Assembly: GCF_030013595.1 (NCBI RefSeq)
Contig: NZ_CP122768.1
Reading direction: 5' to 3' (one strand)
DNA: 64,000 nt
From: Escherichia coli
Lineage (GTDB): Bacteria; Pseudomonadota; Gammaproteobacteria; Enterobacterales; Enterobacteriaceae
A model generated the notes under the pieces. The model was not told the DNA's origin. It made no database searches and saw only the letters and a program-made list of their open reading frames with translations. Both the position numbers and the translations under genes were made by a program. This document shows positions 3,270-53,604 of this stretch, piece after piece. The stretch's first letter is position 1, and the number at the start of each line of letters is the position of its first letter.

Positions 3270-3305
3270 CGCAGCACGATCTTGCATACGACGTGCTACG
3301 GTTTC
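3270..3305. repeat. hairpin element copy B; probable bidirectional terminator between the GIY-YIG gene and pin
   Basis: cgcagcacgatcttgcatacgacgtgctacggtttc has a 10-bp stem with one mismatch. It abuts the pin stop codon (3304..3306). Confidence 0.6.
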
Positions 3306-3858
3306 ATTTATCTCCGACCGGAAACTTCTTATACAAAGTCGATACACCCACATCGTAGATAATCGCCACCTTCTGGCGAGGAGTTCCTGCTGCAATTAAT
3401 CTTCCGGCTTGTGCCCATTGTTCTGGTGTAAGTTTGGGACGACGTCCACCAATTCGTCCCTGTGCGCGAGCAGCTTCCAGTCCAGCTTTTGTTCGTTCAA
3501 CAATCAGTTCACGCTCCATTTCAGCCAGGGCACCCATCACATGAAAGAAAAAGCGTCCCATTGGTGTGCTGGTATCAATTGAATCCGTCAGACTATGAAA
3601 GTTGATGCCTCGTTCGCGCAACTCCTCCACCAACACGACAAGATGCCGCATACTACGCCCCAGCCGATCCAGCTTCCAGACAACCAGAGTGTCACCTGCC
3701 GATAATGTCCTGAGCAGTTTTTTCAGTCCCGGCCTTTCGGACTTTGTGCCGCTTATCTTGTCTTCAAAAATCAGCTCGCATCCTGCACAGTTCAGCGCAT
3801 TACGTTGTAGATCTGTGTTCTGGTCATTTGTTGATACGCGTACATAGCCAATAAGCAT
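3304..3858 (-). CDS. pin: serine DNA invertase Pin (Hin/Gin/Cin family)
   Basis: MLIGYVRVSTNDQNTDLQRNAL... is near-identical, from memory, to the 184-aa K-12 e14 PinE. The start is taken at the internal ATG (3858). Confidence 0.95.
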   Translation of the reverse strand: MLIGYVRVSTNDQNTDLQRNALNCAGCELIFEDKISGTKSERPGLKKLLRTLSAGDTLVVWKLDRLGRSMRHLVVLVEELRERGINFHSLTDSIDTSTPMGRFFFHVMGALAEMERELIVERTKAGLEAARAQGRIGGRRPKLTPEQWAQAGRLIAAGTPRQKVAIIYDVGVSTLYKKFPVGDK

Positions 3859-3912
3859 GGTAGATCCCCCTGACAAAAGCAGGAATGATGCCATTTGCTC
3901 GTTATTTCTGCA

Positions 3913-4285: not shown

Positions 4286-4717
4286 ATGGAAAAGACATAT
4301 TATTTTAATCCCTCTGATTCGGGATTTTATATTTCACCAGATAGCCAAACCATTCCTGAGAACGCTACGAAAATAAACTTTACTATTTATTCTGAGTTCG
4401 CAGGAGTTGCATGGCCTGATGGTAAAATACTTGGTTCAGATAAAAATGGTTTTCCAGCATGGCAGGATGCGCCACCACTTACCAGCGAAGAATTAATCTC
4501 AATCGCTGAATCAAATAAACAGCGATTAGTTAATCAGGCCAACGAATACATGAACAGTAAACAATGGCCTGGTAAAGCGGCGATTGGTCGTCTGAAAGGT
4601 GAGGAACTGGCGCAATATAATTTGTGGCTGGATTATCTGGACGCACTGGAACTGGTCGATACTTCCAGTGCGCCAGATATTGAATGGCCTACTCCTCCGG
4701 CAGTTCAGGCCAGATGA
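4286..4717 (+). CDS. alternative tail fibre assembly protein (silent orientation)
   Basis: Directly follows the alternative fibre cassette. The C-terminal motif [13 protein letters not shown] parallels that of the expressed Tfa. Confidence 0.8.
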   Translation: MEKTYYFNPSDSGFYISPDSQTIPENATKINFTIYSEFAGVAWPDGKILGSDKNGFPAWQDAPPLTSEELISIAESNKQRLVNQANEYMNSKQWPGKAAIGRLKGEELAQYNLWLDYLDALELVDTSSAPDIEWPTPPAVQAR

Positions 4718-38548: not shown

Positions 38549-39395
38549 GTTCCAGAATGTAGTGATTGTCACTATTGTCGGTTGGCTTGTGTTGTTTGTC
38601 TTTCTGCCCAACCTGATGATCATTGGCACCAGCTTTTTGACCCGCGACGACGCCAGTTTCGTCAAAATGGTCTTTACGCTGGATAACTACACGCGTCTGC
38701 TCGATCCGCTCTATTTTGAAGTGCTATTGCACTCGCTGAATATGGCGCTGATCGCCACCCTCGCCTGCCTGGTGCTGGGCTATCCTTTTGCCTGCTTTCT
38801 GGCGAAGCTGCCACACAAGGTGCGTCCGCTGCTGCTGTTTCTGCTGATTGTTCCGTTCTGGACCAACTCATTGATTCGTATCTACGGGCTGAAAATTTTC
38901 CTCAGCACCAAAGGCTATCTCAACGAGTTTTTGCTCTGGCTGGGCGTTATTGATACACCAATTCGCATCATGTTCACGCCCAGTGCGGTGATTATCGGTC
39001 TGGTTTACATTCTGCTACCGTTTATGGTGATGCCGCTGTACTCCAGTATCGAAAAACTGGATAAGCCGTTGCTGGAGGCGGCGCGCGATCTCGGTGCCAG
39101 CAAGTTGCAGACCTTTATCCGCATCATTATCCCACTGACGATGCCGGGAATTATTGCCGGATGTTTGCTGGTGATGCTGCCAGCGATGGGCCTGTTCTAT
39201 GTGTCCGACCTGATGGGCGGTGCGAAAAACCTGCTGATCGGTAACGTCATCAAAGTACAGTTCCTCAATATTCGTGACTGGCCGTTTGGTGCAGCCACCA
39301 GCATTACGCTGACTATCGTAATGGGCCTGATGTTGCTGGTTTACTGGCGCGCTTCTCGTTTGCTGAATAAGAAGGTGAGCGATATAGATAATTAA
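38532..39395 (+). CDS. potB: spermidine/putrescine ABC transporter permease, with the last codons replaced by prophage sequence
   Basis: Collinear with PotB up to ..RLLNKKV. It then reads SDIDN*, where K-12 has ELE* (from memory). A GTG start about 33 nt downstream is also possible. Confidence 0.9.
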
Positions 39396-39622
39396 TCCTT
39401 TATATTCAATGAAATAAGTTGGTTTTTAAAGGGTTTTATTGTTGAAGGCAACCGCGTTGTGTCTTTCACCAAAATCAATCAGTTGCGTTCTGGTTTTGGA
39501 GAATGTTTTTTGAGGCTTTTTGTTAAAGCCTGTTATGCATTGCCTCAATTAATAACCGTTTCCCCAGCCCTCCCAACCTTCAAAAGTCGGGAGGGTTCTA
39601 AACACCAGTTGCGATTGATTTA

Positions 39623-40195
39623 TTAGCCAATACCAAACGCTCGGATTGAACCCAAATCCTCCAGATTGTTCAGATCCTCTTTCATTTCACGCTGACGGCG
39701 ATAAATCTCGTCATTGCGATCGACCTGAGCCTGCGCCATTGCTGCCGCCAGCTCCTGAAGCTGTGCCATTGTCAGAGTGACAAGGTTATTTGCTGCATCC
39801 CCCCATCCCAGCGTTGACCGCGTACCTGCAACCTTTGTCGCCATTGCCACGGGCGCAATACGACTTATTGAGTCTGCACCACCATTCCAGGTACGACCGT
39901 TCCATTCGAACGTGAACGGCTGCGCCTCCTGTTCTGTGCGCCATGCTTCGATTTCCTGGCGTTTGGCGGCTTTTGCTGCTTCCAGCATTTCAGGTGATAC
40001 AGTGAACGGGGCTATATCCCCCCATTTACCGCTTTGCAGCTCCTGCCAAATTTGCTGGCCTGTTGTTGCTGTGTCTTCTGGTGTAGATGTGTAGGGGATG
40101 AAATCTTTCATCCCCTCAAATAACACTTCACAGTCAATTGCGCCATTCTCCAGCCTGCGGGCGTTTTTGATTTCTTTTATTTTTATCCCATTCAT
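39623..40195 (-). CDS. tail fibre assembly / chaperone-like protein
   Basis: Directly follows the Stf-like gene with an ATGA-type junction. Confidence 0.6.
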   Translation of the reverse strand: MNGIKIKEIKNARRLENGAIDCEVLFEGMKDFIPYTSTPEDTATTGQQIWQELQSGKWGDIAPFTVSPEMLEAAKAAKRQEIEAWRTEQEAQPFTFEWNGRTWNGGADSISRIAPVAMATKVAGTRSTLGWGDAANNLVTLTMAQLQELAAAMAQAQVDRNDEIYRRQREMKEDLNNLEDLGSIRAFGIG

Positions 40196-41598
40196 CAGGA
40201 AACTCTCACAAACAGACCGAAAATAAAATCGCTGGTCGCCTGAGTGCTGTTGCCCAGAGAGACATAGGCTCCCGAAAAGTGGCGTCCAGTATCCAGCACA
40301 TACCGTGGTGCTCCGTCATTCGACACTATAACAGCGCAGGGAATCAGAGTGCTGCCGCTTACGCTGTCACCACGTTTTATCGTATATTCATCAGTATTTG
40401 CTGCACGGTACGCGGCCTGAGTTAAGCCGCCAACTGCCACATCTCTGAATGGTACGTCGTACCACGGGCCAGCTATGTTATACAGCCATCTCGCACCATC
40501 TATCGCGGTTAAGTTTTGACTCAGGCATGTCCAGCGTATGTTCGTACTGTCCGCCCTGACCTCACAACAATACACGTCCTGATTAACCCCGTTAAAAATG
40601 ACAAACTTATCGCGCCTGTTTTGATTTTCATGCGTTGCTGTTTCCAGCATTTTTATCTCTACCTCTCCGCTAAAAACAACCCCTTCTATAATGTCCTTGG
40701 AATATGGGCCACCATATTGAACGACAAGATAGCGCCCCGGGGGAGTGGTCTGTACCCAAGAAGCAAATGTTGCTGATGTCGCGTATTTATCAAACTCCTT
40801 ACGTTGTGTGGGATACGCGCCATAACCGAAAGCTCCCGGAAGTGCCACACAACCTTCAGTTCGGTTGTAAATGTCTGTTTGTACATCCATCGTTGCAGCA
40901 CTTTTCAACCCCAGATTGTCTCGGGATTCCTGCTGAGCATCTTCCCCCTCTGCTGCAATTTCTGACAGGTGATTCGCCGTTTTCAGCGTTGCAGATAACG
41001 CAACATCAATATCATCTCTGGCCTGCTCTGCATCGGATGCGGCCTGTTTGGCGGCTTCAGCATCCTGCCTGACTTCTTCGGCGGTATCCTCAACCTGCGA
41101 GGCCAGCTGTTCAACGCGCTGCGTGTTTTCCTCCACAGCATTTGTATTCTGCTGAACATTATCTGCCAGCGTTTCAACCTGCTCTTTTATCAGAGCTGCC
41201 GCTTCAGCATGTTGCCCTGCCTGTCGTTCGCTTTCCGCTGCCGCTTCCGCGCTCTGCTGCGCCTGCACCACCAGTTCTTCGAACCGCTTAACAACATCTG
41301 GCTTCAGGTCGCCTTCATCGAGAGCGGTCAGGAAGTCGTTCAGCGTGCCGTGCTTTGAATCGTCGTAAACCGAAATATCACCGACACAATATTCTCTTTC
41401 AATACATGACCGAAGATAAACGTCATATCTTCCGGTCTGAGCCTCAAATGCATATTCTCCTGCCGGCCCCGTCACCACTGTTGCCACCGTTCTCATGACC
41501 ACTGCGGATGTATTCTGTCGGGCTTTCAGAATAATATGGTATCCGGACATGGGGAGTCCCGCACCATCCGTCAGCACACCCGAAATTAATACAGACAT
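40195..41598 (-). CDS. lambda Stf-type side tail fibre with a distinct C-terminal domain
   Basis: The N-terminal ~95 aa are collinear with lambda Stf (ISGVLTDGAG.P....I.LKARQNTS.VV..TV...AGEY......G.YDV.L......G.I.VYDDS.HGTLNDFL). An Ala/Glu/Gln coiled region follows. Confidence 0.75.
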   Translation of the reverse strand: MSVLISGVLTDGAGLPMSGYHIILKARQNTSAVVMRTVATVVTGPAGEYAFEAQTGRYDVYLRSCIEREYCVGDISVYDDSKHGTLNDFLTALDEGDLKPDVVKRFEELVVQAQQSAEAAAESERQAGQHAEAAALIKEQVETLADNVQQNTNAVEENTQRVEQLASQVEDTAEEVRQDAEAAKQAASDAEQARDDIDVALSATLKTANHLSEIAAEGEDAQQESRDNLGLKSAATMDVQTDIYNRTEGCVALPGAFGYGAYPTQRKEFDKYATSATFASWVQTTPPGRYLVVQYGGPYSKDIIEGVVFSGEVEIKMLETATHENQNRRDKFVIFNGVNQDVYCCEVRADSTNIRWTCLSQNLTAIDGARWLYNIAGPWYDVPFRDVAVGGLTQAAYRAANTDEYTIKRGDSVSGSTLIPCAVIVSNDGAPRYVLDTGRHFSGAYVSLGNSTQATSDFIFGLFVRVS

Positions 41599-41622
41599 GT
41601 TTATTTCCTGATTCAGAAAACA

Positions 41623-42711
41623 TTAACCAAAATAATTGACGCCTTTTTTCTTGCCACTGGCTTTCCCCTTTGCAGAAATATCCGTGGTCAGTGACAGATT
41701 CAGCGTAAATCCCTGTCCCGGTACCAGTGAAAACTCCACAGACTCAGCCTGCCAGTGATGGTCCTCACGCACACCAAATCCCTGCGTGACAAAACGCATC
41801 TCCGCCCCTGCTTTCAGCAGTTCCGGCCTGCAGGGCAACGTTATCGTCATCTGGCGTCCGACTTTCTGCACACGTTTAACCTTCGACTCTGCACAGTGTT
41901 TTGCGGTGCCCTGGTCAGGCTGGGTAAACGGATGCCGCTTATCTGTTGACTCCACGTCAACTTTAACTTCACGTGTGCGTCCGTCACGGGCATCAAAATA
42001 CCGGACCCCAACTTTCCCGCTCTTTTTATCCCCCTTCGCACCACCCGCAGCGCCCTGTCGCTCACCTTCACGATAATCCCAGTCTGATACCATACCCGGT
42101 GTAATGGTTATCTCAGGCGCATTTCTGCCCCCCGTACTCTGTGATGCCCCGTATTCCAGAAATAACCAGTAGCCATTGGTCGGTTTACTGGTGGCGCCGT
42201 ACATACCTGCAATGCGGGACAAGAGGGCAGCATCAGATTCTGATGACTGCATCACCCACGGGATATGAATATCAGCAAGCACCGATGAGACGCGCGCCAC
42301 CAGATTATTTTCAGTGGCGATGGTGTTCACCAGGTCGCCCAGTGTGATATCGCTGAAAGCCCGGGTTTTCAGTGCGGTCACGTCTGCGCCATGTTTTGAC
42401 GCATTCATGGGGGCTGCGGTGGCATAAATGGTGAGCCGGCGGGGAGGACCACCGCTTGCCACCTGACAGACGGTAAAACTGCCTTTATTGACCAGATTTC
42501 CGTTGAACCCCAGTCCCAGCGTTAGCACCGCGCCTTTCGGTGGTAACGCCAGCGTCTCGCTGAACAGCGTTATCATCAGTTCATCGGACCGCTTTGTGGC
42601 TGCACCATTATCGGTATATCGCAGTTCAGCCAGCCCCCGTTTCAGGGCCTTCGTGATATCCTGGCCTTCCGCTGTCAGGCTGAAATCCGGCTGATATTCA
42701 TTCAGTCCCAT
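41623..42711 (-). CDS. P2 gpD-like late control/tail protein
   Basis: 362 aa; synteny after gpU/gpX. Confidence 0.85.
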   Translation of the reverse strand: MGLNEYQPDFSLTAEGQDITKALKRGLAELRYTDNGAATKRSDELMITLFSETLALPPKGAVLTLGLGFNGNLVNKGSFTVCQVASGGPPRRLTIYATAAPMNASKHGADVTALKTRAFSDITLGDLVNTIATENNLVARVSSVLADIHIPWVMQSSESDAALLSRIAGMYGATSKPTNGYWLFLEYGASQSTGGRNAPEITITPGMVSDWDYREGERQGAAGGAKGDKKSGKVGVRYFDARDGRTREVKVDVESTDKRHPFTQPDQGTAKHCAESKVKRVQKVGRQMTITLPCRPELLKAGAEMRFVTQGFGVREDHHWQAESVEFSLVPGQGFTLNLSLTTDISAKGKASGKKKGVNYFG

Positions 42712-42920
42712 AACTGAAACGTCTCCTTCACTTCCGGTTCATATACCCAGTCCGGCAACACGATTTCCACTCCCGACGGATAGACCGGACCAAGGTCAGC
42801 CAGCCCGGGATTGGCTTCCAGTACCGCCGCCAGTGACTGGTTAAGCCCGGCACTGCCATAGTGTCTCTGACAGATGTCATCCAGCATATCGCCGTCAGTG
42901 GTCCGCCAGTTTTTCGCCAT
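42702..42920 (-). CDS. P2 gpX-like tail protein (LysM-like)
   Basis: 72 aa, ..GDMLDDICQRHYG....L..VLEANPGLA. Confidence 0.8.
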   Translation of the reverse strand: MAKNWRTTDGDMLDDICQRHYGSAGLNQSLAAVLEANPGLADLGPVYPSGVEIVLPDWVYEPEVKETFQLWD

Positions 42921-47567: not shown

Positions 47568-48113
47568 TCAGGTATTTTGTGGCTGCTCAGGCCAGCTAAT
47601 ATTGTTGTAAGTGGTCTTATCCGTAATAGCGCTGAAATCCATCGCCTGCAGCGATTTCGCGTAAATGCGGTACGCTTTGAGCTTTTCCCTGTCTTCGTCA
47701 CTGATTAATCCCAGCAGCAGGTCTTTTTCCCATTCGCTGGTCATGATGCTGACCTGTTTTAACAGTGCATCACGCTCATCTTCCGCTTTAAGTTTGTAGT
47801 CAAAAACAAATTCATCATTGCGGTAGAACCAGTATCCCGACGCCTCAATGCGACGATTAGCGGTAATATCCGGCAACTCAATCACACTTTTATTTTCCGG
47901 GCAGATTGAGGTGATGTCTTTTCCGACCCAGACCACTTCGCCAGTTTCAACATAAATAACTTTCAGAGTGTCTGGCTGAAATTTTTCCTGGGCTTCGTGC
48001 CATTCCTGACCATCATCGGAGAACAGCCACAATAAAAATTTATGCTGTCGTGCCAGCTGGTATTGCTCAATTGTTTTAGGGTTTTGTGCCGTAAGATTTT
48101 TTAAGTGCATCAT
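47568..48113 (-). CDS. tail fibre assembly protein (P2 gpG-like position)
   Basis: Synteny. Confidence 0.7.
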   Translation of the reverse strand: MMHLKNLTAQNPKTIEQYQLARQHKFLLWLFSDDGQEWHEAQEKFQPDTLKVIYVETGEVVWVGKDITSICPENKSVIELPDITANRRIEASGYWFYRNDEFVFDYKLKAEDERDALLKQVSIMTSEWEKDLLLGLISDEDREKLKAYRIYAKSLQAMDFSAITDKTTYNNISWPEQPQNT

Positions 48114-48115
48114 GA

Positions 48116-49465
48116 TTACAAACTCGCTACATTTCGCCAGACACCATTAATCAGAACCTGCACCGGGCGTGCATTGGCCCAGTCCACACTTTCACCGCCA
48201 TCAACACCACTCAGTAAATGACCTGATGGCGCATTTCCTCCGCGTCCAATACCAATGGCACCTCCCAGACGCACATCCTGCACACCACCTGTTCTGGTCT
48301 GGTAACGGGCATCAAAATTTCCGTAGTTTGATGGAACCATCTGCCCGTTTACGGCAAACGTTATGCTGTTATCCGTATTCCTCTGACTGTAAAAATGCCA
48401 GCCAGAATCATCACCAAGCTCTGCAACAACAGGCCTTGAGGAATTTCCCCATAGACTAAATCTTGCACTCTTCGTGGAAGAACTGTCACACGACAGCGTG
48501 AACTTTCTTAAATTGCCGGTCGAGAGATTTTCTAATGCCAGCACACCGTTTTTTGTAAAACGAAAGGCGTTGTGTCCCTCTGCAAACACATTAATAACAC
48601 CGCGTCCGCCCCACTTAAAACCGGTATTGCTATCACAGAGCGTGAGTGATTTTTCACCCAGATTGTTCTCATTACCGATGCCAATCCTGTCACCAATAAC
48701 CACATCGCCCTGGCGCAGGTTAATGGAAATGGGCCGCAGTGGGCCAATATCACCATTTTCTCCATGGTCTTCCTGCGTGGGAATGAAGTGCAGGTAATCT
48801 TCTGAACGACGAAAAATCAGGCCAAAAGCCTCGTTGAAAATCCTCAGCGCATTAACACCACGGATTTTCAGTTCCCCGGTCATGGTGTCACCATCACGCT
48901 GAACGGCATTTTTTGCCTTGTCCACCGTGGGTTTTAATCCGAGGTTTTCAACAGCCTCATCCTTGTCTTCCACATCCGAAAGATTCTTTTTTCGTTGCAG
49001 ATAGCGTCTGTCTCCGATTTCCTGAGTAATAATGGCCCTGTCCGGATCAACTTCCAGCACCACGTTTTGTGCGTGCGTCAACCCAAGAACCAGCGTCAGA
49101 ATAACTTCCTTGATAACGGAGTCCGTCTGGTCTGGTAAAAAGGTGTCGGGATAACGTCCGTACGCGATAAGCGTACCTCTGTCGCTGATCATCCCCAGTT
49201 CACGAAGGGTTTTACCGGGGTATGATTTACAGTCAATCACAATATCCCCGCTGATGAAGCCCTCCTCCACCGCACCGTCGGAAAAGGGTTCCTGCCCGAA
49301 TTCGCCGTACAACGATGTCATTGCTGCCATTTCATCCGGCGTGGATGGCAATGCACGCCCGCCCCCGTCACCAAGCAGAACATGCCGGACGGTCACGGTT
49401 TGCCCGTTCTGATATGCTGCTTCAATTTCTGCAGCGCCGGACGTTGTCAGAATCAGTCCATTCAT
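48116..49465 (-). CDS. baseplate-attached tail fibre (P2 gpH position; tail-collar-type N-terminus)
   Basis: Synteny after gpI; N-terminus ..VRHVLLGDGGG. Confidence 0.8.
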   Translation of the reverse strand: MNGLILTTSGAAEIEAAYQNGQTVTVRHVLLGDGGGRALPSTPDEMAAMTSLYGEFGQEPFSDGAVEEGFISGDIVIDCKSYPGKTLRELGMISDRGTLIAYGRYPDTFLPDQTDSVIKEVILTLVLGLTHAQNVVLEVDPDRAIITQEIGDRRYLQRKKNLSDVEDKDEAVENLGLKPTVDKAKNAVQRDGDTMTGELKIRGVNALRIFNEAFGLIFRRSEDYLHFIPTQEDHGENGDIGPLRPISINLRQGDVVIGDRIGIGNENNLGEKSLTLCDSNTGFKWGGRGVINVFAEGHNAFRFTKNGVLALENLSTGNLRKFTLSCDSSSTKSARFSLWGNSSRPVVAELGDDSGWHFYSQRNTDNSITFAVNGQMVPSNYGNFDARYQTRTGGVQDVRLGGAIGIGRGGNAPSGHLLSGVDGGESVDWANARPVQVLINGVWRNVASL

Positions 49466-51323: not shown

Positions 51324-51947
51324 TTACATTTGCTGACCAGGCTGTCCGGTGCTGCCACCACTGTCGCCCCGGTGATTGTGACCGTTATAGACAATTCTGA
51401 TTTGACTCATCGTTCCGTGATAATCAGAAACCTCACCACCGACCATCAGATCCGCCTTAACCACCGCCTCAGCATTCATGGTTGCTTTACCCTGTACGGT
51501 CAGGGTATCTGTGATTTCTACCGGACCGTCCAGGGTTCCCCTGCCGGTAATTTTATAGCTGCCGCCTTCAGCCAGCGTGATGGACAGGGCATTAGCCTGA
51601 CGGTCGTAACGGATTTCCGTTCCGGTATCAAACAAAATAACATGTTCGTATTCACTGCCCTCAGGGACAGGAATGGCGTCAATATTGGCCCCCGGATACA
51701 CCCGACCGTTACGCAAATCGCCCGCCTCCGATATCACTGTAACGGCATCTCCGGGAGCCGGGTAATTACTGACCTGCATGTAGCGCCCGGACTGTACCTG
51801 AATCCAGGGCAACGGAGGCGAAAGCACATCCCCGATATCCACCCGAACCATCACCGGGCTACCCGGGATCACCTCGTCCACCACGCCGCGACGGACCATG
51901 TCCGCCACCCTGCGGCGTAACTCTGCCACTTCATCTGCCAGACTCAT
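51324..51947 (-). CDS. P2 gpV-like baseplate spike
   Basis: Internal ATG 51947 (MSLADEVAELRRRV..). C-terminus IVYNGHNHRGDSGGSTGQP. The upstream 98 codons overlap the preceding gene. Confidence 0.85.
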   Translation of the reverse strand: MSLADEVAELRRRVADMVRRGVVDEVIPGSPVMVRVDIGDVLSPPLPWIQVQSGRYMQVSNYPAPGDAVTVISEAGDLRNGRVYPGANIDAIPVPEGSEYEHVILFDTGTEIRYDRQANALSITLAEGGSYKITGRGTLDGPVEITDTLTVQGKATMNAEAVVKADLMVGGEVSDYHGTMSQIRIVYNGHNHRGDSGGSTGQPGQQM

Positions 51948-52497
51948 CACCGGTGCCCTCTGTTTTCCAGATAAGACGATAATCCCGCTCATGTTTCTTG
52001 CCGGTTTCCGGAGCTTTCCCCAGCCAGACTTCCTGTAAAGGCGCACCAGCCGGAACCTCGAACGGATCTTCTCCGACAGGAATATCCTGTTCAAAAGAAA
52101 CGCGGAAAACGATGTAGTCATCCAGAAGCCGGTCGAAGGTATCCACCTCAGCATCAATAAAAACAGCCGGATCAACGTTATCCAGCCCGAACGTGGCCCC
52201 CTCAATCCAGTCAGATAAATCCATCGCCAGACAACGGGCAAAAATCTGCGGTTTTGGCACGTTTTCCGTCTTCCCGGCCCGGTCTGTCACCACAAACAGA
52301 TCACATTTCAGCGTGACCCGCGTCTGCCCGTCGGCAAACTGAGCCTTGTCCCAGCCCGGTACATCCACAAACACGGCAGGCGTCACCAGTTGCGTCACTT
52401 TTTCCGGATACTCATCGGCATCTTCCACCCAGGGAATTTGTTTCAGACTGTCAATCACCGCCTGATGCCAGGCGCCCATCATCAATGGCTCCATCAC
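51931..52497 (-). CDS. tail completion/terminator protein (U-like)
   Basis: Synteny between the lambda-type neck genes and the P2-type baseplate genes. Confidence 0.5.
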   Translation of the reverse strand: MMEPLMMGAWHQAVIDSLKQIPWVEDADEYPEKVTQLVTPAVFVDVPGWDKAQFADGQTRVTLKCDLFVVTDRAGKTENVPKPQIFARCLAMDLSDWIEGATFGLDNVDPAVFIDAEVDTFDRLLDDYIVFRVSFEQDIPVGEDPFEVPAGAPLQEVWLGKAPETGKKHERDYRLIWKTEGTGDESGR

Positions 52498-53216
52498 TCC
52501 AGCCCCTTAAATACCCGGAATTTCAGTTCATGCTCAAAATTTTTCAGGATCAGTGCTTCCGCATCCGGAAAAACAAAATCCTCTATACGGTTCAGCATGG
52601 CTTCATAAATATCAATTTCCGCTTCACGCACCCTCCGTCGTCCGGATGCCTGTCGGATCAGTATCGTTTTCCTTTTTGATATACGTCCGTTACGATTTTC
52701 CGCTTCGAACTGGTTGATAAAGGCATCATCCGTTGACCAGGTGGTGACAGGCAGGGATTCCCCGGCAGGTTTAAAACTGATCTCCCGAGCCTTCCTGCGG
52801 CTGGAAGCTGGTGCAAAACGCCCCCGCTCATCGCGCAACTGATGGCGTTCGCCGCGTCGTCCCCCACTGATGCGTCCGCGCAGATCGCGTACTTTGATGG
52901 CGTTCAGACCGAACCATACCTTCGCCTCATCAAACTCATCACCGTTACGACGAATGATAAAATTATGCAGAACACGCTTTTTGATCATTTTCTGACTGCG
53001 TGGCGCAACCTGTTTTTTAAACTCTGCCAGGGCCTTCATCCGCAGTGCAGACGCGGCTCTTTTCAGCGCCACGCCCCAGGCTTTACGGATCTGACTTTTT
53101 GACCCACCCAGTTTAGCGATAATTTTCAGCACCTCATCTTCATCAATATCGACAACGAGGTTTCGTGCCAGCCGTCGCTGCCGGGCACTGCTTCGTTCAT
53201 GCTCTCTGACTGCCAT
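52494..53216 (-). CDS. tail completion protein (lambda Z-like)
   Basis: Start at ATG 53216. Basic protein; loose resemblance to gpZ. Confidence 0.45.
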   Translation of the reverse strand: MAVREHERSSARQRRLARNLVVDIDEDEVLKIIAKLGGSKSQIRKAWGVALKRAASALRMKALAEFKKQVAPRSQKMIKKRVLHNFIIRRNGDEFDEAKVWFGLNAIKVRDLRGRISGGRRGERHQLRDERGRFAPASSRRKAREISFKPAGESLPVTTWSTDDAFINQFEAENRNGRISKRKTILIRQASGRRRVREAEIDIYEAMLNRIEDFVFPDAEALILKNFEHELKFRVFKGLE

Positions 53217-53604
53217 AACGTTTACTCGGTCGTTCCGGTGCAGCAGGTGTATTTCTCCCGGGCTCTCCACGCGCAAGGGTGATGGTAATCACCCCCTGAC
53301 CCGCAGCGCCTGACTCATCCCAGCCGGGATCGACTACCTGATAGGGTTCGCCGTGGATCATGACCCTGTCATATTTTTTCAGACCGGCGGCCCATGCGCT
53401 CCGGGTAAATAACACGGGCGCAGTATCACGAATTTCGCCGCTGCCAGTGTTCATCCCGGTGTTATCTGCCGGGGCATCAAAAACGGCACGGATTTTTCTT
53501 TCCGTGCCGCCCGGATATATGCTGATTTCCGTCCCCATCGTATCCAGGATGATGTCATCCGCATCACTCATGGCCTGATCGAACAGATTATCGAACATCA
53601 TCAC
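53197..53604 (-). CDS. lambda FII-like head-tail joining protein
   Basis: FDNLFDQAMSDADDIILDTMGTE here versus lambda FII FDNLFDAAIARADETIRGYMGTS. Confidence 0.8.
   Translation of the reverse strand: MMMFDNLFDQAMSDADDIILDTMGTEISIYPGGTERKIRAVFDAPADNTGMNTGSGEIRDTAPVLFTRSAWAAGLKKYDRVMIHGEPYQVVDPGWDESGAAGQGVITITLARGEPGRNTPAAPERPSKRYGSQRA

What the first reader, a model, noticed from the sequence alone, without database searches (positions are those of the whole stretch)
39623..41598. A second, lambda Stf/Tfa-type fibre module appended after gpD of a P2-type tail
The P2-like cluster already has its own fibre and chaperone at the canonical H/G position (47568..49465). After gpD, where P2 has no structural genes, there is a 467-aa protein. 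Its first ~95 residues are collinear with the lambda side-tail-fibre N-terminus. An Ala/Glu/Gln coiled region, a novel C-terminal domain and a cognate chaperone-like gene follow. A siphovirus-type side-fibre attachment domain on a contractile-tail phage implies dual fibres, and possibly dual receptors. How it docks on the tail is not obvious.
Basis: partly seen in the sequence, partly recalled or inferred. Interest (0 to 1): 0.5.

Follow-up and report, generated by a model that had tools for sequence, protein, structure and literature searches.

The report
Second tail fibre on P2-type prophage
A prophage with a lambda-type head and a P2-type contractile tail carries, after its last tail gene, a second receptor-binding fibre with a lambda-Stf-type anchor and a DUF4376 chaperone; this module is a constant, already annotated feature of several E. 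coli prophage lineages, so the finding is real but fairly ordinary.

Summary

An Ala/Glu/Gln-rich helix and a C-terminal domain follow. The overlapping 190-aa gene (39623-40195) is a DUF4376 protein, not a lambda Tfa. DUF4376 proteins are proven fibre chaperones in Alteromonas phages.

The pair lies inside the prophage, 24 nt after gpD and 245 nt from the potB att core. It is not a one-off. All 28 IMG/VR relatives of this gpD with downstream sequence have the same gene 24-53 nt after gpD. The anchor is conserved and the distal part varies (complete genes 405-1046 aa). phiP27 L56/L57 (sequenced 2002), Rac-SA53 and pPE4 carry the same pair after their canonical fibre.

The C-terminal domain is not novel. 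It recurs in lambdoid Stf proteins, in rV5-like phages and on PF12571-anchored fibres.

Docking is unproven. In the two solved myophages with this anchor fold (XM1, A-1(L)), it holds neck fibres, so neck attachment is my favoured inference.

Verdict: new member of a known kind, modest interest.

The parts
41314..41598 (-). N-terminal anchor (collar) domain of the second fibre, residues 1-95, StfN/PF08400 type
40954..41313 (-). Linker and Ala/Glu/Gln-rich helical shaft, residues 96-215; presumed trimeric coiled coil
   Evidence: Composition A 25, E 17, Q 14 of 120 residues. A single predicted helix spans 101-211, at low monomer confidence. XM1 gp40 and lambda Stf have the same anchor-then-coiled-coil layout (PMC10457771, PMC12617516).
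40195..40953 (-). Distal part and C-terminal receptor-binding domain, residues 216-467 plus stop codon
   Evidence: Residues 263-467 are folded, block-mean pLDDT 47-89, mostly 70-89. No Pfam or significant PDB match. 85.5% identical to SerU-LTIIb Stf and about 31% to rV5-like phage fibres. Residues 183-467 are 89-92% identical to PF12571-anchored 408-aa fibres.
39623..40195 (-). DUF4376 protein, 190 aa; presumed cognate fibre chaperone; its start overlaps the fibre stop codon
   Evidence: PF14301, E 3.9e-16. phrog_1141 full length, E 3.7e-84. Homologues sit directly after the homologous fibre in phiP27 (L57), Rac-SA53 (tail4), pPE4, SerU-LTIIb and L117-L119, and adjacent to it in Av-05 and TH18 by coordinates. 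DUF4376 proteins V22 gp27 and A5 gp9 are described as fibre chaperones (PMC7289586, PMC10579305).
41599..41622 (-). 24-nt gap between gpD and the fibre gene; no promoter, so the pair reads as the end of the tail operon
   Evidence: ORF coordinates. No promoter-like site in the gap. The same 24-25 nt gap occurs in 27 related loci.
41623..42711 (-). gpD-type baseplate hub / late control D; context, the last canonical P2-type tail gene
   Evidence: Weak PF05954 match, E 1.8e-4, below the curated cutoff. Annotated 'phage late control protein' in RefSeq. About 29% identical to phiCTX gene D over 93% of its length. Flanked by gpX, gpU, tape measure, tube and sheath.
39364..39377 (+). att core at the prophage-chromosome junction inside the 3' end of potB (TGAATAAGAAGGTG)
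   Evidence: The near-identical copy TGAATAAAAAGGTG lies before potC at the integrase end of the same prophage in STEC383.
39568..39595 (.). G+C-rich stem-loop (CCCTCCC...GGGAGGG) just downstream of the DUF4376 gene; possible end of the late transcript; no U-tract
   Evidence: Read directly from the sequence. The consensus terminator scan did not call it.
47568..49465 (-). Canonical baseplate fibre (449 aa, PF12571 N-terminus) and lambda-Tfa-type chaperone (181 aa, PF02413) at the P2 H/G position; context
   Evidence: Pfam. No similarity to the second fibre or to its chaperone.
51931..53604 (-). Neck genes and candidate docking partners: FII-like head closure protein (53197-53604), Neck1/tail-completion protein (52494-53276), unknown 188-aa protein (51931-52497)
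   Evidence: PF05354 Phage_attach, E 6e-13. phrog_82 head closure Hc1, phrog_27 tail completion/Neck1 and phrog_1072 unknown function. Their role as partners is inference only.

Best explanation
The pair is the accessory, second receptor-binding fibre of a temperate phage with a lambda-type head and a P2-type contractile tail.

Shown:
- The two genes end the tail operon. They lie 24 nt after gpD with no promoter between, and they overlap each other.
- The 467-aa protein has three parts: a StfN-type beta-sandwich anchor (1-95), a long helix (101-211) and a folded distal domain.
- The anchor is held nearly constant across the lineage, while the shaft and tip are exchanged as a cassette together with the downstream chaperone.

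Inferred:
- The protein trimerises through the coiled coil.
- The DUF4376 protein folds or caps the distal domain, as in Alteromonas phages V22 and A5.
- The three anchor domains of each trimer bind a ring of the virion, and the fibre gives fast, reversible first contact with a receptor different from that of the baseplate H-type fibre, as lambda Stf does.

Favoured docking site (about 45% on its own): the neck, at the exposed FII-like / tail-completion / terminator rings above the sheath. The only two solved contractile-tail phages with this anchor fold use it for neck fibres. The lambda site, the tube-to-distal-tail junction, is covered by the sheath and baseplate in a myophage.
For: -
- The pair lies inside the prophage.
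- All 28 gpD-selected IMG/VR loci with downstream sequence carry an StfN gene 24-53 nt after gpD. In 27 of them the anchor is 89-100% identical. The distant L113 (gpD 48% identical) has a 29%-identical anchor. Complete fibre genes are 405-1046 aa, and DUF4376 follows most of them.
- The same pair closes the late operon in phiP27, Rac-SA53 and pPE4. In 45 of 80 anchor-selected loci the gene directly follows a Tfa-type chaperone gene, most with a canonical-fibre N-terminus just upstream.
- The distal cassette is shared with PF12571-anchored fibres, each followed by DUF4376.
- DUF4376 chaperone function is reported in PMC7289586 and PMC10579305.
- The Stf anchor tolerates foreign distal parts, including P2 gpH (PMC11338833).
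- Lambda Stf accelerates adsorption (PMC12617516).
- The two fibres and the two chaperones of this phage are unrelated to each other.
Against: - There is no experimental evidence for any member of this lineage. No phage in the collection has a gpD more than 50% identical, and I found no virion proteomics or EM for phiP27 L56-type proteins.
- Neck docking is only an analogy. The anchor is much closer to lambda Stf (45% identity), which docks at the tail tip, than to XM1 gp40 (23%).
- Anchors 89-91% identical to this one also occur in true lambda-tailed contigs (L012, L017), so anchor sequence does not track tail type.
- I found no conserved partner. The FII-like protein is only 32% identical to lambda FII, and the neck proteins have no tblastn match in phiP27 or Rac-SA53.
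- The coiled-coil region was modelled as a monomer at low confidence.
Confidence: 0.6

Rival explanations
1. [quoted passage not shown] It would form a collar at the junction of the tube or sheath with the baseplate, giving side fibres next to the H-type baseplate fibres.
Against: The window has no gpV homologue, and U and Z also gave no hit (gpM was not searched). In a sheathed tail the tube is buried. A 12-mer collar sized for a siphophage tube would not fit around a sheath. Both solved myophages with this fold use the neck.
Confidence: 0.2
2. The two fibres are alternatives rather than simultaneous. Particles would carry one or the other, or the second fibre would matter only on particular hosts, as a host-range reserve comparable to invertible fibre segments.
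For: Related tails without the module use an invertase-switched fibre instead: Citrobacter phage Chris1 and the second prophage in this window. The same distal cassette can sit on either kind of anchor.
Against: The two anchors, PF12571 and PF08400, are unrelated and so should not compete for one site. Both genes lie in one co-directional late gene cluster with no switch element.
Confidence: 0.08
3. It is a relic of recombination with a lambdoid siphophage. The genes would be carried along and perhaps expressed, but not assembled onto this tail.
For: Nearly identical anchors (89-91%) occur after stf-tfa in lambda-tailed contigs. The head genes of this prophage are lambda-like, 49-63% identical to lambda W, B, C, D and E, so exchange with lambdoid phages is easy.
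Against: The gene is present in 28 of 28 relatives at the same 24-53 nt spacing. All 15 genes that are not cut off by a contig end are intact ORFs. The anchor is conserved despite extensive turnover of the distal part. That pattern indicates selection on both attachment and receptor binding. One truncated copy exists, in STEC383, where several other genes of that prophage are frameshifted too.
Confidence: 0.07
4. It is not a virion component. It would be a lysogenic-conversion or cell-surface protein expressed from the prophage end.
For: It lies at the prophage end, where morons often sit. DUF4376 ORF-191 homologues lie in the partial P-Eib prophage records that carry the eib genes.
Against: Every detectable domain is a fibre domain. 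PHROGs places both proteins in tail categories. There is no promoter of its own. I did not test for a signal peptide.
Confidence: 0.03

Closest known systems
Phage lambda side tail fibre Stf with Tfa (Ur-lambda; PDB 9e7m)
   Different: The chaperone is DUF4376, not Tfa (PF02413). The distal domain is unrelated to the gp37-like tip of Stf. The protein is shorter, 467 aa against the 776-aa Stf ORF of the Ur-lambda-like contig L012. The lambda partner gpV has no homologue in the window, and the tail here is contractile.
Stx2e phage phiP27 L56/L57, with Rac-SA53 tail3/tail4 and pPE4 gp69/gp70
   Same: These are direct homologues. The fibre is 56% identical over its full length, with an anchor 76-78% identical. 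The DUF4376 protein is 68-73% identical. In each case a second fibre pair lies at the att end of a temperate contractile-tail phage that also has a PF12571-type fibre with Tfa.
   Different: There the pair follows the canonical fibre and Tfa of a Mu-type or other baseplate cluster. Here it follows gpD, because the P2 gene order puts H/G upstream of the sheath. Heads and necks differ; phiP27's show no tblastn match to lambda or to this window. None of these has been characterised experimentally as far as I could find.
Vibrio myophage XM1 collar spike gp40 (PDB 7kjk) and Anabaena myophage A-1(L) neck fibre gp82 (PDB 8keg)
   Different: Sequence identity is low (23%). Their distal parts differ: tailspike-like in XM1 and a bead chain in A-1(L). 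Neck attachment is demonstrated for them and only inferred here.
Alteromonas phage V22 gp26/gp27 and A5 gp8/gp9 (fibre plus DUF4376 chaperone)
   Same: A DUF4376 protein is encoded immediately downstream of the fibre it serves.
   Different: The hosts and fibres are unrelated. I did not compare the sequences directly, so the shared domain is the only link.
P2 gpH/gpG canonical fibre module
   Same: Both are trimeric fibre-plus-chaperone cassettes. The same distal domain as in the second fibre occurs on PF12571 (gpH-type) anchors in other prophages.
   Different: The 467-aa protein lacks the PF12571 N-terminus, so it should not occupy the gpH site on the baseplate wedge.

Membership tests
Lambda Stf-type side tail fibre (PF08400 family) | N-terminal PF08400 domain above Pfam's gathering score | tested here: met
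   182.4 bits against a cutoff of 26.6, profile positions 1-134 of 134.
Lambda Stf-type side tail fibre (PF08400 family) | Fold of gpStfN: six-strand antiparallel sheet followed by a helix | tested here: met
Lambda Stf-type side tail fibre (PF08400 family) | Trimeric coiled-coil shaft after the anchor | tested here: inconclusive
   A single long helix, 101-211, is predicted, Ala/Glu/Gln-rich, but at low monomer confidence. The oligomeric state was not modelled.
Lambda Stf-type side tail fibre (PF08400 family) | Tfa (PF02413) chaperone encoded downstream | tested here: not met
   The downstream gene is PF14301 DUF4376. It shows no similarity to the window's own Tfa, and lambda Tfa gave no tblastn hit there.
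Lambda Stf-type side tail fibre (PF08400 family) | Docking partners gpV (tube) and gpM (distal tail protein) present | tested here: not met
   tblastn of lambda V, U and Z found nothing in the window; only W, B, C, D, E and FII matched. gpM was not queried. The tube here is PF04985, P2 FII type.
DUF4376-type tail-fibre chaperone (V22 gp27 type) | PF14301 domain in the C-terminal part of a protein of about 190-240 aa | tested here: met
   59.9 bits against a cutoff of 25, residues 73-177.
DUF4376-type tail-fibre chaperone (V22 gp27 type) | Encoded immediately downstream of the fibre gene and travelling with its distal domain | tested here: met
   Start and stop overlap at 40195. It co-occurs with the homologous distal domain in phiP27, SerU-LTIIb, Rac-SA53, Av-05, TH18 and L117-L119.
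DUF4376-type tail-fibre chaperone (V22 gp27 type) | Required for fibre folding or host binding | not testable with these tools
   Needs co-expression and binding assays.
Myophage neck / collar fibre (XM1 gp40, A-1(L) gp82) | Ig-like N-terminal anchor of the same fold | tested here: met
Myophage neck / collar fibre (XM1 gp40, A-1(L) gp82) | Attachment to connector and terminator rings at the neck | not testable with these tools
   Needs cryo-EM, or multimer modelling with ring assemblies. Candidate partners lie at 51931-53604.
P2 gpH-type baseplate fibre | PF12571 tail-collar fibre N-terminus | tested here: not met
   No PF12571 match in the 467-aa protein. The 449-aa protein at 48116-49465 has it.

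The most novel reading that the evidence does not exclude
The StfN-type anchor attaches this fibre to the neck of a lambda-head/P2-tail phage. If so, a widespread group of temperate enterobacterial myophages (this lineage, phiP27-like, Rac-SA53-like) would carry exchangeable, receptor-binding neck fibres. One receptor-binding cassette with its DUF4376 chaperone would then move freely between neck fibres, baseplate fibres and siphophage side fibres. Occurrence of the same anchor subfamily alongside a lambda-type Stf in one siphophage (L012) would then mean that two distinct docking sites exist for PF08400 anchors.
Probability: 0.4. Interest if true: 0.5.

Novelty: new member of a known kind. 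Interest (0 to 1): 0.3.

Why it matters
If both fibres are on the particle, prophages of this lineage, common in porcine ETEC and STEC, recognise two surface structures. They can change one by swapping a cassette without touching the baseplate. That bears on host-range prediction and on the spread of prophage-borne genes in these strains. It also bears on engineering of contractile particles, where a conserved StfN anchor could serve as a ready-made grafting point, as already exploited for lambda. Where a StfN collar sits on a contractile tail is a small but directly testable structural question.

Tried and rejected
- A genome-contig scan with gpD found no confirmed relatives. I used IMG/VR instead.
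- I tested whether anchor sequence co-varies with a neck partner. The FII-like protein is only 32% identical to lambda FII. The neck proteins have no tblastn match in phiP27 or Rac-SA53. Yet anchors 89-91% identical occur on lambda-tailed contigs. So there is no partner signal, and I dropped this as evidence.
- I looked for an att repeat of 14 nt or more across the STEC383 prophage and found none at the ends. The 14-nt imperfect core was found by reading both junctions.
- The consensus scan called no terminator after the pair and no promoter before it.
- Literature searches for PF08400, phiP27 fibres and pPE4 gave nothing on function.
- A position-by-position comparison with UMNF18 failed, presumably because of indels. 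BLAST was used instead.
- I considered modelling an anchor-partner fusion and rejected it.

Full report
**What is there**

On the minus strand, a 467-aa ORF (40195-41598) starts 24 nt after the 362-aa gpD-type hub gene (41623-42711). A 190-aa ORF (39623-40195) follows, and its start overlaps the stop codon of the first.

Upstream lies a complete contractile-tail cluster in P2 gene order:
- gpX, gpU (PF06995), tape measure, tube (PF04985) and sheath;
- a Tfa-type chaperone (PF02413) and a PF12571 fibre at the H/G position;
- gpI, gpJ, gpW and gpV.

Beyond these come an FII-like head closure protein, FI, and lambda-like capsid, protease, portal and terminase genes.

The window region is 100% identical to E. 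coli UMNF18 over 39300-42800.

**The observation**

- Pfam PF08400 covers residues 1-134 of the 467-aa protein, the whole profile (E 4.9e-54).
- Residues 1-93 align without gaps to lambda Stf (E 4.4e-16), at 45% identity over 100 residues.
- An AF2 model built on 37 homologues gives a six-strand sandwich (1-77), a helix (101-211) and a folded C-terminal domain (263-467). Mean pLDDT is 65 and the linkers are poor.
- Residues 96-215 are Ala/Glu/Gln-rich.

The similarity is far beyond chance.

**Corrections to the description**

The downstream gene is a DUF4376 protein (PF14301, E 3.9e-16; phrog_1141). It is not a lambda Tfa. It is unrelated to the Tfa at 47568-48113.

DUF4376 proteins of Alteromonas phages V22 (gp27) and A5 (gp9) are described as tail-fibre chaperones that are needed for host recognition (PMC7289586, PMC10579305).

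The C-terminal domain has no Pfam or PDB relative, but it is common:
- 85.5% identical to the 'stf' of the lambdoid LT-IIb prophage;
- 56% identical over the full length to phiP27 L56;
- about 31% identical to fibres of rV5-like lytic phages.

A DUF4376 homologue lies next to each of these.

Residues 183-467 are 89-92% identical to 408-aa fibres whose N-terminus is PF12571, the baseplate type. In those prophages the 408-aa fibre follows a first PF12571 fibre with Tfa, and DUF4376 follows it in turn.

**Does it belong to the prophage?**

Yes.
- The junction with the chromosome is inside the 3' end of potB. The window reads ...CTGAATAAGAAGGTG then AGCGATATAGATAATTAA, giving PotB a phage-supplied tail, ...KKVSDIDN.
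- In STEC383 the same prophage ends, beyond its integrase, with ...TGAATAAAAAGGTGGAACTCGAATG running into potC.
- The core, TGAATAA(G/A)AAGGTG, is at window 39364-39377, which is 245 nt from the DUF4376 stop codon.
- In ETEC1732 a sister prophage at ompW has Rha and ash genes between the pair and the att site.
- No promoter-like site separates gpD from the pair.

**Is it peculiar to this element?**

No.

I selected IMG/VR contigs by gpD alone. Of 31 loci, 28 have sequence beyond gpD, and all 28 have an StfN-type gene starting 24-53 nt after gpD.
- In 27 of them the anchor is 89-100% identical. The distant L113 (gpD 48% identical) has a 29%-identical anchor.
- The complete genes are 405, 465, 467, 654, 667, 726, 757, 877, 1042 or 1046 aa.
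- The chaperone is usually DUF4376. In L099 and L100 it is Tfa-like.

I also selected contigs by the anchor. The 80 loci fall into four groups:

| Gene directly upstream of the anchor gene | Loci | Anchor identity to this one |
|---|---|---|
| gpD | 28 | 89-100% |
| Tfa-type chaperone (most also have a canonical-fibre N-terminus just upstream) | 45 | 74-78% |
| lambda J-lom-stf-tfa | 3 | 75-91% |
| Other | 4 | 73-93% |

Sequenced phages phiP27 (L54/L55, then L56/L57, then attR), Rac-SA53 (tail1-tail4) and pPE4 (gp67-gp70) show the same layout.

More distant P2-type relatives, Chris1 and yong2 (gpD 48-50% identical), lack the pair. Chris1 has an invertase-switched fibre instead.

**How it most likely works**

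Shown:
- the position at the end of the operon;
- an anchor, shaft and tip architecture;
- a conserved anchor with a variable tip-plus-chaperone cassette.

Inferred:
- a trimeric fibre whose tip needs the DUF4376 protein to mature;
- a receptor distinct from that of the H-type fibre, because the two proteins are unrelated;
- a role in fast initial adsorption or in extending host range, as for lambda Stf (PMC12617516).

The engineered lambda-Stf chimeras, including one with P2 gpH, show that such anchors accept foreign distal parts (PMC11338833).

**Where does it dock?**

- In Ur-lambda, twelve StfN domains form a collar at the junction of the gpV tube and the gpM ring, carrying four trimers (PMC12617516).
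- This phage has no detectable gpV homologue, and its tube is sheathed.
- XM1 gp40 is also detectable by sequence (E 4e-6). Its N-terminal 176 residues give a sub-threshold PF08400 match at E 0.002.

On that precedent, and on geometry, I favour the neck, at the FII-like / Neck1 / terminator rings encoded at 51931-53604. This is analogy only. I found no co-varying partner.

**Comparison and novelty**

The module is a member of the PF08400 fibre family by its anchor. It departs from lambda Stf/Tfa in its chaperone, its tip and its tail context.

It is orthologous in kind to phiP27 L56/L57, deposited in 2002. RefSeq routinely annotates such genes as 'prophage tail fiber N-terminal domain-containing protein' plus 'DUF4376 domain-containing protein'.

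I found no experimental work on these second fibres.

The finding is therefore a real, correctly spotted module of a known kind. The open part is its docking site on a contractile tail.

Noticed in passing
window 1-24023: A second prophage occupies the start of the window. It has a phiP27-like Mu-type contractile tail: sheath 82%, hub 64% and DNA-circulation protein 53% identical to phiP27. Its fibre end looks e14-like: a 261-aa fibre, a Tfa, an oppositely oriented Tfa-like ORF at 4286-4717, and a 196-aa ORF at 3304-3894 that I take, unchecked, to be a pin-type invertase. It has no PF08400 or DUF4376 gene, so the two contractile-tail prophages in one window may use different host-range devices.
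   Followed up: partly
window 49193 onward, against L001 (NZ_AGTD01000001.1): The UMNF18 RefSeq record matches the window only from 26580 to 49193. Inside the canonical fibre gene it switches to a Mu-type tail cluster that has its own PF08400 (538 aa) plus DUF4376 pair. This is either an assembly collapse across shared fibre sequence or a real recombinant between two prophages.
   Followed up: partly
window 39364-39398: Integration rebuilds the end of potB. PotB here ends ...KKVSDIDN, using phage sequence. The displaced original end, ...KKVELE, which overlaps the potC start codon, sits at the other prophage junction in STEC383 (L005 48378-48402).
   Followed up: partly
L012 7049-10765 and L017: These Ur-lambda-like siphophage contigs carry J, lom, a 776-aa Stf whose anchor is 100% identical to lambda's, and Tfa. 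A second PF08400 gene follows, with an anchor only 44% identical to lambda's but 89% identical to the one in this window. That is two anchor subfamilies in one phage.
   Followed up: partly
L117-L119 4740-8808: These prophages, with DUF2590, Baseplate_J and HP1_ORF34 tail genes, have two PF12571-anchored fibres in tandem. The first has a Tfa. The second (408 aa) carries the same distal domain as the window's fibre and is followed by DUF4376.
   Followed up: partly
L099 and L100, 7126-9122: In two members of the same gpD lineage the StfN fibre (465 aa) is followed by a lambda-Tfa-like chaperone (46% identical to lambda Tfa) rather than DUF4376. The chaperone type therefore swaps together with the tip.
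   Followed up: no
P0020 and P0018: Two database proteins join about 330 residues of this fibre (96-98% identical from residue 137 or 140) to unrelated N-termini. One of them is annotated as major capsid protein (PF03864). They are probably assembly or gene-calling chimeras.
   Followed up: no
L005 3581-4886 (STEC383): In STEC383 the StfN fibre gene is truncated, missing its C-terminus. Several head genes and gpV of that prophage are frameshifted. It is a decaying copy of the same prophage at the same potB site.
   Followed up: no
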